Below are positions 6,799-27,914 of a stretch of 64,000 bases of DNA, piece by piece. Origin of the DNA: Carcharhinus longimanus. Its lineage: Eukaryota. Positions within the stretch are counted from its first letter, which is position 1. Each line of letters opens with the position of its first letter. Made by a program: the position numbers and the translations under genes. Under the pieces are notes generated by a model. It was not told the origin of the DNA and made no database searches. It was given only the letters and a program-made list of their open reading frames with translations. The stretch spans positions 34,098,853-34,162,852 of the forward strand of contig JASCQW010000162.1 of assembly GCA_030264375.1 (NCBI GenBank), read 5' to 3'.

Positions 6799-7832
6799 TT
6801 AAATAGGTATATCCACGACCCAATTAAAAATGCAACCAAGCAATCCTATCCTCAGTAGCAGTAGCATGAGGGCCTTAAAGATCCAATCAAATAATCCGTG
6901 ACCCAGCCATCCCGACTGACCCGGTGGGTCCTCGTCACAAAATTCAAGGCCAACCTCTTGAAGCTGATCAGCCTGCCTCTTGATGTAGCCGGCCAGGTTA
7001 CTGGTATTTTCAGAGGCGGCTGGGATATAAGTACAGCACTCTCGACCTATAATGGCGCACGTTCCTCCCTCCGAGGCTAATAGATAGTCCAAAGCCATTT
7101 GGTCCGGACAGCCACCAGCTCAGCCGAGGCCTGGGCTAGTGCCTGTCCAGTCACCTTTGCTTCCGCCGCTGTTACATTTGCCAGTTGTTCCAATGCCGAG
7201 GCCAGAAGAATCAGTTGGTTTGCAGCCTTGGCTTTTCCATATGGTGGAAAGGCCATCATAAAGAACCATTCAGTTCCGCAAATGGCCCTTCTGACTCACA
7301 AGGGGTGGTGCTGAAGGGAGGGTAGGTGGTGCAGGTAGGGTGCGACATATCCCAGATAACAGGATCCAATCCAATTGGTAGGAAGCCACGAGTAGGCTTT
7401 AGTGCCACATATGAAATATGTTCCATTGTAGGCTGTAAAATCATCGGCCAATGTCATCCAGGGTACGGGGGTGTTATGTGCCCAAGAGCTGTTAGAGGTG
7501 ATATTCCATACCCCGGAAAAATCAAGGAGAAACATACCCTTATCAGATAGGCCTGCTACTGGTCTCTGCCATTCAGTTGTAAGGTTGCATTTACTTTGCC
7601 CCACCCTCTCTCCTGTCCCTGATTTACTAAAACATAGGGAACATCACACATCACTCGAGGAGACAACAAGGGAGGGTGGAAGAAAGGCATGATTATATGC
7701 AGACTGGTACCAGGTTGAAAACCTACTCATTTCATAGCCAGCCAATTCCCATTCTATCATATCTCCCCCGATCCCTGTTCGGTTTTGACGTAAAATCCAT
7801 TCCACGGTCTCTGCTAAATGACAAGGCACTGC
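6799..7832 (-). pseudogene. env: Endogenous retrovirus env (gamma-type, SU C-terminal part plus TM), disrupted
   Basis: Joined ORFs 7644-7829, 7296-7604, 7077-7259 and 6799-7098 give NGTYFICGTKAYSWLPTNWIGSCYLGYVAP (SU end), *VRR (furin site RVRR with CGA>TGA), a fusion peptide and heptad, a partial immunosuppressive domain MALDYLLASEGGTC, CX6CC (CAIIGRECC) and a hydrophobic TM segment. Confidence 0.9.
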
Positions 7833-13699: not shown

Positions 13700-15240
13700 C
13701 TTCAGAAACCTTGCACAGCGAGTGTGATTTTGGCATTGAGTATAGAAAGCACTTGTAGTCTATATCCCATAAAGCTTGCAGCTTCAAATTAAAGGAAACG
13801 AATCAAAGTAGGTTAGAGTAATCTGTGAGTCTGTGATATGTGATTTTTGTTAAGGCAGCCCTAAGAAAAAGAAGTGATATGTAATGGTAAAAGCAACACA
13901 CAAGAGTATTTAAGACCCTGCTAATGCCTGACATTGTTGATGCGTTGAAGTAGGAGATGCACTTAAAGAAGACAGGCGCAAGGATGGCTGGTGAATGGAG
14001 AGCTGGTGCACGGAGGGTTGGTGTAATGAGGGCTGGTGTATAGGGGCTTGGTGTATGGAGGGTTGGTATTGGAGGACCGGTGTATGGAGGACTGATGTGT
14101 GGAGGGCCAGTATATGGAAGACTGGTGTACAGAGGCTTGGTGGATGGAGGGCTGATGTTGGAGGGCCAATGTATGGAAAACTGATGTACAGAGGACTGGT
14201 GAATGGAGGGCTGGTGTATGGAGGACTGGTGTACAGGGGCTTGCTGTATGGAGGGCTGGTGTTGGAGGGCCAGTGTAAGGAGGACTGATTACCGAGGACT
14301 GGTGAATGGAGGCTGGTGTATGGAGGGCTAATTGGGAGAAACATCCAGATGTCGGACCAAATAAGATCAATGGACAATCTTGCATAAAATCCCTGAACTT
14401 GAGACACTAGGAGAGACCACCAACCCTGATGAGTCAGTCCCACATCCAGTGAGAATTATTGGGCTTCCAGTCACCATTCTGAGACATCGAGATGTGGACG
14501 ATCAGCTCACACAGTTTGAAGAACTCATGGACGCAAAGGACAACTCTGACACCCGAACTCTGGGCACTGAGCTGGTGGAAAATATCACTGGGTTATTAGT
14601 GGGCAGGGGAAAATCTCCAAAAGAAGTTAAAGGGCCTCCCTGAGGTCAGCAAAGCAAAAATAAGACAAAAAAGTACAATTGTAACATAGGTACAAAGAGA
14701 TACCAGGCAAAGCAGAAAGCACTATGTTGAGTGACTCAGTTGCTCTACAACCAATAGGCCCCAAACAAAATCCTAACCCACATTTCTGGTTGCTGCCTAT
14801 TTGTTATGAATGCAAGGATCAAACAACAGACTGGAACAGCCGCACCTGTATGTTGCTGAGTGACATCATGCCAGAGATCAAGGCTTGTGGCCAAGCGTGG
14901 CTCCTTGTAGAAGTCTGGTATAATTTTCAGGAAAGATCAGAAAGTTGCAGTAGTTGATGTCACAGTCTGGTACAAAGATGACAACAAGGCAATTGAGATA
15001 GCGTGGGAAGAAAAAAAGTGGAAGTATGTACACCTTGGATCTGAGATTAAAGAAGGAAGCTCAAATCCCGACGTATATTGGCTTTGTATTGGGTGCAAGA
15101 AGAAAATGGCTCAAGATAAACAACAACCAATTTCAATTTCTCAACGTTCAGAGATAGAAGTCATTCACCCAGCAAATTTCCAAACTCAAAACATCCCGGA
15201 CGCTCCAAATGCTGCAAATCTTCAGTGACAGTAAGTTGGA
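13700..15240 (+). mobile_element. Degraded R2-like (RLE non-LTR) retrotransposon with RT region missing
   Basis: 14770-14823 ILTHISGCCLFVMNARIK (zinc-knuckle end). 14896-15060 RGSL*KSGIIFRKDQKVAVVDVTVWYKDD...AWEEKKWKYVHL. Near 15070 TYIGFVLGARRKWLKINN; near 15160 KSFTQQISKLKTSRTLQMLQIF. These follow the order and wording of R2 C-terminal motifs (KPD..F, VVDVTVRY, EK..KY..L, GF.LGARGKW). The 5' part (13700-14370) is only weakly recognisable. Confidence 0.8.
13985..14330 (+). repeat. 15/20-bp minisatellite (ggactggtgtatggag/ggctggtgtatggag variants)
   Basis: Visible tandem array; it produces the spurious Pro/His-rich ORFs 13910-14443. Confidence 0.9.
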
Positions 15241-17399
15241 TTACATTTCTATAGCCCATCTCCCTGCTGGTGGTGACAAGCCAACCCTCGGTTCCAGAGT
15301 GTGGCATTGTGAACGATGACAGAGTGTGGTGGGCACCAACACAGGGTGCAAAAATCATGACGGAAAAACAAAATAGTAACATATAAACACAAAATGGAAA
15401 AAAAAATGTAACCAGTAGAAAACCCCAGAAGTGAATGGTGATGGATAACTCATGTAATGCAGGACTATTGAATAAATGGTGCATGGTTAATTACACACTG
15501 ACGGGATGTTGCAGCAACACTATCAAATGATGAATTCTTGCAATAGTCCTCACACAACAAACTGGAATGGTACTCGAAACAACATGCTTGGTAACTTGAA
15601 AGAATCAGCCCCAAAACAGTAAGACACCAATGACCCCAGTCAACCCCTGTCTCAATATAATCCCAGTAAAGACCCCCGTTTGTGGTAAAGCTAGAAGTTT
15701 CAAAAATGTGGACAAGCCACGTAAAGGCTCAGGTAAGGCACTCACATTGTTTTCAAATAAGCCTTTGTAACAATACCCTGTCCCAAACAGGTAAACGGTC
15801 ACTGATAACAGGGCACAATATGTATTAAGCTTTCATTGTTTTTATCCTTGTGGTTCATTCATTGTACCTCATGCATATCCACAACACACCAGGACACACA
15901 GTTAAGATGTAAATTACAATTAAAATCTCCTTCATTATTACAGCATCTCAAGCGTACATTCCTGCTTGCAGCAAAATTTCATGCAGAAAATTGCCTATGA
16001 GTGAAATTGAAAAGGATGCAAACAATTAAAGAGTATGACAACTTGCTGTCAGAATAGTGAAACACAAATCCTTACAGCCTTAGGAGGACTTCAATAAACA
16101 TCTCAAACCATGACTTTTCTTTGGCTCAAGGGGAAAAAGGCTAAAAAGTGACAGGTAAGAATGAAGTAAAAGGAAACCAAGATACCGGCACAAATCTACA
16201 AAGAGGTGTCAGCAGCCCAACCCCCGTACTGTTTGATGGCTGCTGAAGTGAAGACGATGTTGCCTGAGGTAGTTAGGTAATAAGGAAGACCTGTTTCGAG
16301 TGACCTTTTATGCCACTTTCTGCCCACAGCTGTATAATTCAATGGGTGGTATTTTATGACCTCACTTGTCCTGAAACAATAAATTCCCACCCAAGGTCAA
16401 CGGGCCTTTCCATTGTCCGCCCCTCGTCCGCTCCGATTCCCATGGCAGGCGAGCTGGTAAAATTCCGGACAATATATCTCGAGAGAGAGAGCGAACCCAG
16501 TGCTTCAGTGGGGCTATCATTCTATGTTGCATGGTAGCTGTAAGTATTCTTACGTCTCTACTAAGCCAGAACCTCTGAATAAAGCTCCATATAATCCTTA
16601 TTAGGTTAGCATAAAGAAGCATGTAGCTGTTGGTGGTGGCATCTTGGTGGAAGTAGCTAAACAGGCTCTGTCGGCTGTTGTGTATTCAGATATGTCTTTC
16701 ATGGAGTGTCATTTTAATAGTTGATATCCTCTGAATAGAATGTTTCTGTTACAGACATGTGAAAATCTGCCTAGTTGCATGAGCAAGATGGATGAGGAAA
16801 GATGAAAGAGAACCATCTTCCCCATATAACTAGTCAGGTTTCACATGTCAGTACCACTGGCCTGGTATATCATTACTTGGGAACCGTAGGCTCTTTGTGG
16901 GCATGAGGGTGAACATATAACATCTGAGATGCTCTCTGACCTTCATCAAGAGTTCAGAGATGCATGGAGTTCCCAAGGGGACAGCCAATGTAGCACAGTG
17001 GTAACCGCAGAATGACTAGAAGGTCGACACACATCAAATGCCAGATTCTAAGATGAATACAGAGTGGCAAAAGAAGAACAAAAAGATCAACTAAAAGGGC
17101 TTAGAAATTACCTCAAGATTTAAGAAATAATTTTCTTGTGAGGAATCACGAACCTAACTTTCATATTCAGCACAGCAGCTATTCTAAATGATTAGGACCA
17201 TGAATGAGCATCTATCCTGCATAACATCACTGGAAACTTCCTCATAGGATGCTCCCTATTATGTAAATATTTTAACTTGGCTCCATTTCCAGCAACTGCT
17301 CTCAACCCCAACAAATATATGCAGCACACAAAATGCACTTAACCAACCAGCACGACAGATTTCCATCTAATTTAGTTATCAGGTTTTCCCAATCTACAT

Positions 17400-27143: not shown

Positions 27144-27241
27144 TAGGTGAGTACCAAGTTCTCATGAGATAGGCAATCTCTAAAGCAGTGAAATGAAAAG
27201 AGACAAAAAAAAGTATCAGAATCACTTGATAATTTTCCTAC

Positions 27242-27914
27242 CTTGGCAAGCTGTCTCCTTTTCAGCAGGTTCATATCCAGGAGCACAGGTACAAGCTCCA
27301 ACAGGTACCATCCACTCCCCGTCCCCATTACAATATAGCTTCAGCGGCACAGATAGTTCAATAGCATTACTCAGACAGGTACCAGGAGCAATGACAAGTG
27401 ATGTAGGTTCTGCTCCAGTAACCGTTTCTGGAAAAACGGCAAAATTTGCGATCACAGATGGGCATTTCTTGTAGAACACTCGCAGGGAAATGAGTGACAT
27501 GCACGACCCCAGATCCTGAAACGCTAAATAGAATCCATTCTTGGCCAATGGACCAAAGCTTCTGATCTTTGTGTTGACTCGCCCAGTCTCCAGTTTGGAA
27601 AAACTCTCATCAGGTGCAATGGTGTCCACTTTCACATAAGGGTTCTCCATCCAGAATGGTGTTGACGCTGTTGCTGAGTCTGTGTCAGATTCGTAGTAAA
27701 ATAAATTAAAAGTTTCCTTACAAGAACCTGGGATATTTGGTATGCTGTTGCAGTCCCGCACAGTGAATTTCATCTCCACATATACTCTCTGAACATCTTT
27801 ACGTGCTATGTAAGTAGTTCGAAGCCAATTATTCTGGTTTGCTTCCATCACATTACAGACCTGGTATGTGCGAATAGGATTTATTGCATCATCGTATCCA
27901 CTTACTTCTTCCCA
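27242..27914 (-). CDS. EPHB3: EPHB3 coding exon 3 (ephrin ligand-binding domain and start of Cys-rich region)
   Basis: Minus-strand translation [33 protein letters not shown]...[13 protein letters not shown]...[30 protein letters not shown]...[35 protein letters not shown]. Motifs [40 protein letters not shown] and the short 'GRVNTK' loop point to EphB3 rather than EphB1/B2. Acceptor ttcctttgttcAG at 27915-27916; donor GTagga at 27240-27241; 673 bp, phase 0 to phase 1. Confidence 0.96.

What the first reader, a model, noticed from the sequence alone, without database searches (positions are those of the whole stretch)
13700..15240. R2-like retrotransposon fossil outside rDNA, antisense in an EPHB3 intron, with the RT domain missing
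Seen: motifs in R2 order. These are the zinc-knuckle end THISGCC...ARIK (14776-14823), G-S-L-*-K-S-G-I-I-F (a decayed G.LWKPD.IF), AVVDVTVWY, EEKKWKYVHL, GFVLGARRKW..NN and the C-terminal FTQQISKLKTSRTLQMLQIF. Weak upstream traces are QRV*FWH*V (about 13715, possibly a CpG-decayed zinc finger), KATHKSI*...TLLMR (about 13890-13945) and QMSDQIR (about 14345), which resemble the R2 Myb region. Only about 400 bp separate these from the knuckle, too little for an RT. Established: R2 elements normally insert at one site in 28S rDNA. I see no 28S sequence (TTAAGG/TAGCCAAA) at either flank. Inference: an old off-target insertion, or a dispersed non-autonomous RT-less R2 derivative in sharks.
Basis: partly seen in the sequence, partly recalled or inferred. 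Interest (0 to 1): 0.7.

Follow-up and report, generated by a model that had tools for sequence, protein, structure and literature searches.

The report
Dead stray shark R2 retrotransposon
This is a long-dead, broken copy of a jumping gene that normally inserts only into ribosomal RNA genes; it sits in a shark gene's intron as one of about a hundred strays, likely misfires of the insertion enzyme, several of which landed at one look-alike spot inside another repeat.

Summary
Confirmed: window 14427-15759 is a decayed lineage-A R2 copy, antisense in a 45-kb EPHB3 intron, with no 28S nearby. Against an intact 1323-aa R2 in the same genome, about 650 residues (RT, thumb) are deleted at a 9-nt microhomology. 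The non-autonomous family idea fails: 6 deleted copies, 6 different junctions. The copy is not alone: 96 places were listed. Of 44 distinct 3' ends, none lies in a whole rDNA unit, 6 carry a short 28S tail, and 7 independent ones hit the same base of a LINE RT gene whose sequence mimics the 28S target as the published R2Tg off-target logo describes. Best reading: rDNA-resident R2 leaking off-target copies over a long time. Stray and internally deleted vertebrate R2 copies are in print; the LINE hot spot was not found in 8 searches, but this scan noted it before in another shark genome. The copy is ordinary, the family context moderately interesting.

The parts
14427..14764 (+). R2 spacer and N-terminal extension just ahead of the RT (aa ~390-503 of the intact ORF); first securely aligned base of a 5'-truncated copy
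   Evidence: tblastn aa 404-498, 41% identity, E 9e-14; nhmmer 14427-14764, E 2.6e-18
14756..14764 (+). Internal deletion junction; about 1.96 kb (aa ~503 to ~1157: RT, thumb, linker) missing; 9-nt microhomology inferred from relatives on both sides
   Evidence: alignments to 6 left-side and 6 right-side references; jump 498 to 1162 over 25 bp
14757..15234 (+). Decayed zinc knuckle, restriction-like endonuclease (PD of the active site reads SG) and C-terminus; stops and one frameshift near 15070
15235..15759 (+). 3' UTR ending in the family's conserved terminus; followed by non-rDNA that starts like the first bases of the 28S target
   Evidence: 66% to G000:C122 copy over 36-530 and 85% to C99 copy over 454-530 of 533; end in register with the family
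14340..14426 (+). Possible further R2 sequence (end of Myb); uncertain
   Evidence: 3 of 10 references above shuffles, registers disagree
13982..14329 (.). 15-bp minisatellite, 23.5 copies, next to the 5' end; not shown to be part of the element
   Evidence: TRF score 272; no match in other loci held
27240..27914 (-). EPHB3 exon (aa 41-265) upstream of the host intron
   Evidence: 98.7% to shark EphB3 P0134; next exon at G000:C162:34080758-34080934

Best explanation
The stretch is a dead, 5'-truncated, internally deleted copy of a shark lineage-A R2 retrotransposon, likely put into the EPHB3 intron long ago by an off-target priming event of an R2 protein whose source elements likely sat in 28S rDNA. 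Shown: identity, ends, deletion, private junction, dispersal of relatives, 28S tags on relatives, recurrent LINE site. Inferred steps: (1) source copies in rDNA were co-transcribed and released by the 5' ribozyme at -28; (2) the protein sometimes nicked near-cognate DNA and primed on a few bases matching the RNA's 28S-derived tail; (3) the RT was lost by a template jump or later repair across a 9-nt microhomology; (4) strays persist because they escape rDNA turnover, which leaves a layered record of one lineage; (5) one position in a LINE RT gene is hit repeatedly because it mimics both recognised parts of the 28S site. The copy has no function.
For: Intact 1323-aa ORF at G000:C137 with three zinc fingers, Myb, RT, RLE; E 1e-218 to R2Tg; closest proteins are shark. 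The window row falls inside this genome's R2 set on a long end branch, 0.33 against 0.02 for the intact copy (quick tree, 51 rows). 16 distinct loci begin with the 28S-derived leader at or near -28, the commonest R2 self-cleavage site (PMC3774820 section 15). 28S beyond the leader (to -47...-106) or a 3' 28S tail of 28-166 nt followed by non-rDNA in 12 family loci, from old to young layers. 44 distinct non-SINE 3' ends: 7 LINE site, 6 28S tail, 31 other; 17 of the 32 first classed 'other' continue with G as the 28S target does. LINE site: P 6e-16 at the estimated share of 5.5e-4, 3e-5 even at 2%; independent events, since like flanks carry unlike R2 and the reverse; LINE sequence runs on to the gap or contig end in 6 of 7 and for 470 nt in the 7th. 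R2Tg off-targets match 28S at -25..-19 and in 4-5 downstream bases (PMC12222951 section 11); that 7-mer stands in the 5' flank of the one LINE-site copy with both flanks and in the nearest empty relatives of both hosts matched at over 92%. Other sharks have R2 in long 28S flanks (4 of 8 rows seen of Table S2, PMC13188248).
Against: No copy in a whole rDNA unit was seen: the assembly holds only 5 exact matches to the downstream 28S probe, 2 of them empty sites, and no read-level count was obtained, so rDNA-resident sources are inferred. The upstream 7-mer is not generally enriched: of 38 copies tried, 27 were usable and only 4 scored 6-7 of 7, two of them because they carry 28S itself. In the LINE the 7-mer lies one base further from the junction than in 28S, and only 8 of 30 empty sites have 6-7 of 7. 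The window copy's own 5' junction and empty site are unknown; no target duplication over 6 nt. The tree is the quick one and holds no R4, NeSL or CRE rows. The intact copy abuts a 100-N gap at its 5' side and could be an assembly chimera.
Confidence: 0.78

Rival explanations
1. The lineage has relaxed specificity and partly propagates outside rDNA, for example from copies in LINE bodies read from the LINE's promoter and freed by their own ribozyme.
For: 38 of 44 3' ends have no 28S tail; an intact ORF has a non-28S 3' flank; all 7 LINE-site ends and 3 further LINE 5' flanks are in sense with the host; non-specific R2 families exist in flatworms and cockroach.
Against: 28S beyond the leader and 28S tails occur in old and young layers; no copy carries a short LINE tail at a new site as a LINE-hosted master would give; only 1 of 54 matches has a full open frame; the nearest copies to it are 94% and 92% identical, so no burst. 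Sense orientation follows from the mimic itself. A 2026 review warns that extant locations mislead because loss rates differ (PMC13580325).
Confidence: 0.15
2. A dispersed non-autonomous RT-less R2 family (SIDE-like).
For: The deletion is clean and keeps the 3' UTR; one other copy has a right breakpoint within about 10 nt (L048).
Against: 6 deleted copies, 6 junctions: 498/1162, 545/1156, 354/1113, 341/992, 181/1263, 288/796 (50 of the 54 places were fetched). DNA searches with the junction region found only the copy itself. No 28S leader near it.
Confidence: 0.03
3. The copy was first inserted in 28S or a 28S pseudogene and moved or stripped by recombination, not by off-target priming.
For: Some relatives have 28S on both sides (L042, L101, L165); human pseudo-28S sites are used by R2Tg.
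Against: The window copy ends exactly at the family terminus with no 28S on either side; recombination would not give 38 exact 3' ends or the LINE site.
Confidence: 0.05

Closest known systems
Shark lineage-A R2 elements (R2-1_STig, R2-1_SCa, R2-1_CCar; PMC13188248 Table S2)
   Same: Three zinc fingers plus Myb, very similar N-terminus by eye; shark proteins are the top hits, 53-71% in the RT.
   Different: The passages read define R2 by 28S flanks and do not describe dispersed copies or a LINE site; the listed R2-1_SCa upstream flank leaves 28S after about 100 nt and R2-1_CCar has none (by eye).
Avian R2 remnants, including internally deleted R2-2_MUn (PMC5035012)
   Same: Decayed vertebrate R2A copies flanked by fragmented 28S or non-rRNA DNA; one internally deleted.
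   Different: No count of this size and no recurrent second site in the passages read.
R2Tg off-target insertions in human cells (PMC12222951)
   Same: Match at -25..-19 and 4-5 bases downstream.
   Different: Engineered and under 1% of reads; here natural, germline, and concentrated in a LINE RT gene.
R2 SIDEs of Drosophila (PMC3414825)
   Same: Internal deletion that removes the coding core.
   Different: SIDEs keep the 5' ribozyme, are multi-copy and sit in 28S (abstract); this copy is single and 5'-truncated.
Non-specific R2 families R2NS-1_SMed, R2NS-1_CSi, cockroach R2-like elements; Drosophila non-28S R1 and R2 copies
   Same: Copies outside rDNA; Drosophila R1 strays carry 28S tags at both ends and often land in repeats.
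   Different: R2NS have young copies over 98% alike with no 28S link; the shark copies keep 28S tags through all layers.

Membership tests
R2 clade, lineage A | C-terminal zinc knuckle plus restriction-like endonuclease closest to R2 | tested here: met
   R4, NeSL and CRE proteins were not available for direct comparison
R2 clade, lineage A | Three N-terminal zinc fingers and Myb | tested here: met
   met in the parent family; absent from the window copy
R2 clade, lineage A | Single ORF with RT | tested here: met
   parent ORF has RVT_1, E 8e-36; deleted in the window copy
R2 clade, lineage A | Insertion at the 28S site | tested here: inconclusive
   window copy: not met; family: 28S tags at the exact site in 12 loci, but none in a whole rDNA unit of this collapsed assembly
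R2 clade, lineage A | 5' HDV-like ribozyme cleaving upstream in 28S | tested here: inconclusive
   5' ends cluster at -28; fold and activity not tested
R2 SIDE / non-autonomous family | Several copies sharing one deletion junction | tested here: not met
R2 SIDE / non-autonomous family | Keeps the 5' ribozyme end | tested here: not met
   no leader match with up to 5 mismatches near the copy; profile starts at position 1317 of 2031
R2NS (lost specificity) | Young near-identical copies at unrelated sites with no 28S link | tested here: not met
   nearest copies 94% and 92%; 28S tags in old and young layers
R2NS (lost specificity) | Protein lacks preference for 28S | not testable with these tools
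   needs a biochemical or cell assay

The most novel reading that the evidence does not exclude
Sharks carry a vertebrate R2 lineage with a real second home: it reads a 28S-mimicking site in the RT gene of an abundant CR1-type LINE, inserts there in sense, and can be expressed from there, which makes it a living intermediate between strict rDNA targeting and target switching; its 3' UTR has also seeded a new SINE family.
Probability: 0.2. Interest if true: 0.72.

Novelty: new member of a known kind. Interest (0 to 1): 0.4.

Why it matters
The copy itself does not matter. The family does modestly: R2 fossils are normally erased by rDNA turnover, while this genome keeps about a hundred dated strays of one lineage. 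They give a natural off-target map for the class of enzyme now used for gene insertion, agree with the R2Tg laboratory logo, and name a testable second site and an intact ORF with which to ask whether R2 specificity is graded, a question raised in PMC13580325.

Tried and rejected
Upstream zinc-finger/Myb traces: no signal by HMM, frameshift-aware scoring or genome search. Pre-RT segment against the PDB: only chance hits. Word-index protein search with the decayed piece: 0 of 80 candidates; the HMMER library search gave 12 unnamed hits, not used further. Shared junction with L048: left breakpoints differ by about 40 aa. Target-site duplication: none over 6 nt. General upstream-motif enrichment at 5' junctions: not shown. 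A second hot spot: only two pairs of like flanks among the other ends (L115/L125 in an unnamed repeat; L026/L053 in a SINE tail), too few to call. Sequencing runs: 24 listed, no RNA holder listed; no read or contig lay-over was obtained, so the share of copies in rDNA stays open. Careful tree not finished; 3 of 13 outside proteins were dropped for short alignments. One of two Pfam queries on LINE flanks was out of frame and gave nothing. PMC10087745 and PMC13343379 passages held nothing on stray R2.

Full report
Observation. Read with X at stops, 14680-15078 matches three R2 proteins in the PDB (E 6e-5 to 2e-4) and otherwise only a lectin at E 1.2. A search of the genome with this piece gave 54 matches among 81 candidates, one in a 1323-aa open frame at G000:C137. 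That ORF (P0013) has three zinc fingers, Myb, RT and endonuclease, scores E 1e-218 against R2Tg and is closest to shark proteins: a lineage-A R2.

Anatomy of the window copy. Against P0013, aa 404-498 lie at 14467-14748 (E 9e-14) and aa 1162-1322 at 14773-15229 (E 5e-19 and 4e-12). A DNA profile of 12 5' halves extends the left part to 14427-14764 (E 2.6e-18). About 650 residues, the RT, thumb and linker, are missing. Relatives show a like 9-base word on both sides of the gap, and the window has it once at 14756-14764, so the loss likely ran through microhomology; whether during insertion or later cannot be told. The endonuclease's PD reads SG. The 3' UTR runs to 15759, in register with the family terminus. 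The upstream traces are not above chance (rank 9 of 249 frames; 113 of 152 controls as high); QMSDQIR stays open. A 15-bp minisatellite at 13982-14329 borders the 5' end. No 28S lies near. EPHB3 exons at window 27240-27914 and G000:C162:34080758-34080934 bracket the copy on the other strand.

Is it a non-autonomous family? No. Searches with the junction region returned no second copy across it (7 matches, 1). I fetched 50 of the 54 places and more; six copies have large internal deletions, each with its own junction. The 28S-derived leader of full 5' ends is absent near the copy. SIDEs need both ends and several copies (PMC3414825, abstract).

The family. Merging the lists gives 96 places, 69 of them on 28 low-numbered contigs, which where fetched are mostly chromosome-scale; this is a floor, since only 40 of 138 and 40 of 46 candidates were scored. 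In a quick tree of the C-terminal region (51 rows) 39 rows from this genome form one group (97), laddered from the intact copy (end branch 0.02) to an old group of 8 that holds the window copy (98; end branch 0.33). Full 5' ends start at or near 28S position -28 with unrelated DNA before them, the usual R2 self-cleavage site (PMC3774820, section 15). Twelve family loci carry more 28S than that: upstream to -47...-106, or 3' tails of 28-166 nt followed by non-rDNA; two of these were found through a 28S probe and are left out of the count below. This is what RNA co-transcribed from rDNA would leave; Drosophila R1 strays show the same tags (PMC2718515, passages). The assembly has collapsed rDNA (5 exact probe matches, 2 empty sites), so resident copies cannot be counted.

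Target sites. Of 56 distinct 3' ends, 12 belong to a SINE (see below) and 44 to R2: 7 abut the same base of a LINE RT gene, 6 have a 28S tail (5, L003 added), 31 are other, the window among them. The host codes RT (RVT_1, E 9e-10); the CR1 label is recalled from its motif and fits PMC13343379 (passages: CR1-group elements are 22-34% of elasmobranch genomes, galeomorph sharks lack L2). A strict pattern finds 1080 such sites against 30 in the control; 4 relaxed sites in 317 kb give about 34,000, or 5.6e-4 of all TAG; 7 of 44 has P 6e-16, and 3e-5 even if the share were 2%. The seven are separate events into LINE bodies, not short tails. One has both flanks in the LINE, and three more copies have the LINE just upstream of their 5' end. 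R2Tg's rare off-targets match 28S at -25..-19 and in the 4-5 bases after the nick (PMC12222951, section 11). The LINE site has such a downstream match, and the 7-mer stands in the one retained 5' flank and in the nearest empty relatives of two hosts; it lies one base further off than in 28S, which fits if the nick falls one base earlier and the RNA's A-rich end pairs there (inference). Against this, a third host's nearest relative (88%) has the word shifted by one, only 8 of 30 empty sites match 6-7 of 7, and other 5'-truncated copies show no general enrichment (27 usable of 38).

Mechanism. Most likely, rDNA-resident R2 made RNA, the protein now and then primed at near-cognate DNA, and the strays outlived their sources. 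The window copy is one old stray that lost its 5' third and its RT. The main rival is a lineage with relaxed specificity; it gains from the intact ORF with a non-28S 3' flank, which however abuts an assembly gap, and loses from the 28S tags in all layers and the lack of a burst of young copies.

Prior knowledge. Shark R2A elements are catalogued (PMC13188248: passages, section 5, and 8 of 15 cartilaginous-fish rows of Table S2 with cut cells; supplementary files 13-16 not searched and may bear on this). Decayed bird R2 copies with non-rRNA flanks and an internally deleted one are described, as are two non-specific flatworm families (PMC5035012: passages and section 13) and cockroach R2-like elements (PMC7650587, abstract). 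A review notes that specificity may be graded and that extant locations can mislead (PMC13580325, passages). PMC12180492 (passages) gave structural background only. Eight searches listed no paper on dispersed shark R2 or a LINE site; the library lacks most subscription papers. This scan noted the LINE hot spot in another shark genome (e1-8021769) and a stray with a 28S tail (e1-9314391); I had the hot spot before that look-up.

Verdict. Real, correctly named, wrongly bounded, and ordinary as a single copy: a new member of a known kind. The family record and its LINE hot spot raise the interest to 0.4.

Noticed in passing
L113, L116, L118, L123, L124, L126-L131, L138; source segment L038:7557-8014: A SINE family (12 ends seen; many of the 138 candidates may belong) joins a SINE body to the last ~80 nt of the R2 3' UTR and a LINE-type tail. 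The young R2 carries the same SINE body in its own 3' UTR, ~170 nt ahead of that end, so the SINE likely arose from a deleted R2 3' UTR. V-SINE and CR1-tail labels are recalled.
   Followed up: partly
L038:3294-7265 (G000:C137:49665293-49669264): Intact 1323-aa R2 ORF with 77 nt of 28S before it, a 100-N gap beyond that, and a non-28S 3' flank.
   Followed up: partly
L166:560-650 (minus strand): An element unrelated to this family at DNA level ends exactly at the 28S R2 site with a 48-nt 28S tail, then non-rDNA: possibly a second R2 lineage that also strays. L146 and L161 also fall outside the main group.
   Followed up: no
L165:1377-1533 (minus strand): A 56-nt R2 3' stub inside about 100 nt of 28S, stranded in non-rDNA.
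   Followed up: partly
L115 and L125 3' flanks; L026 and L053 3' flanks: Two pairs of copies end at the same position of a shared repeat (76% over 147 nt; SINE tail): possible further preferred sites.
   Followed up: partly
L137:1358-1415: The 28S-derived leader is repeated three times in tandem at a 5' junction; L078 shows a similar stutter.
   Followed up: no
window 6799-7643, minus strand: Two open frames that read like the transmembrane part of a retroviral envelope remnant (by eye and recall); not tested.
   Followed up: no
window 54934 of the minus strand (about 9050 on +): An empty LINE RT site of the hot-spot type lies in the same intron, about 5 kb from the R2 copy.
   Followed up: no
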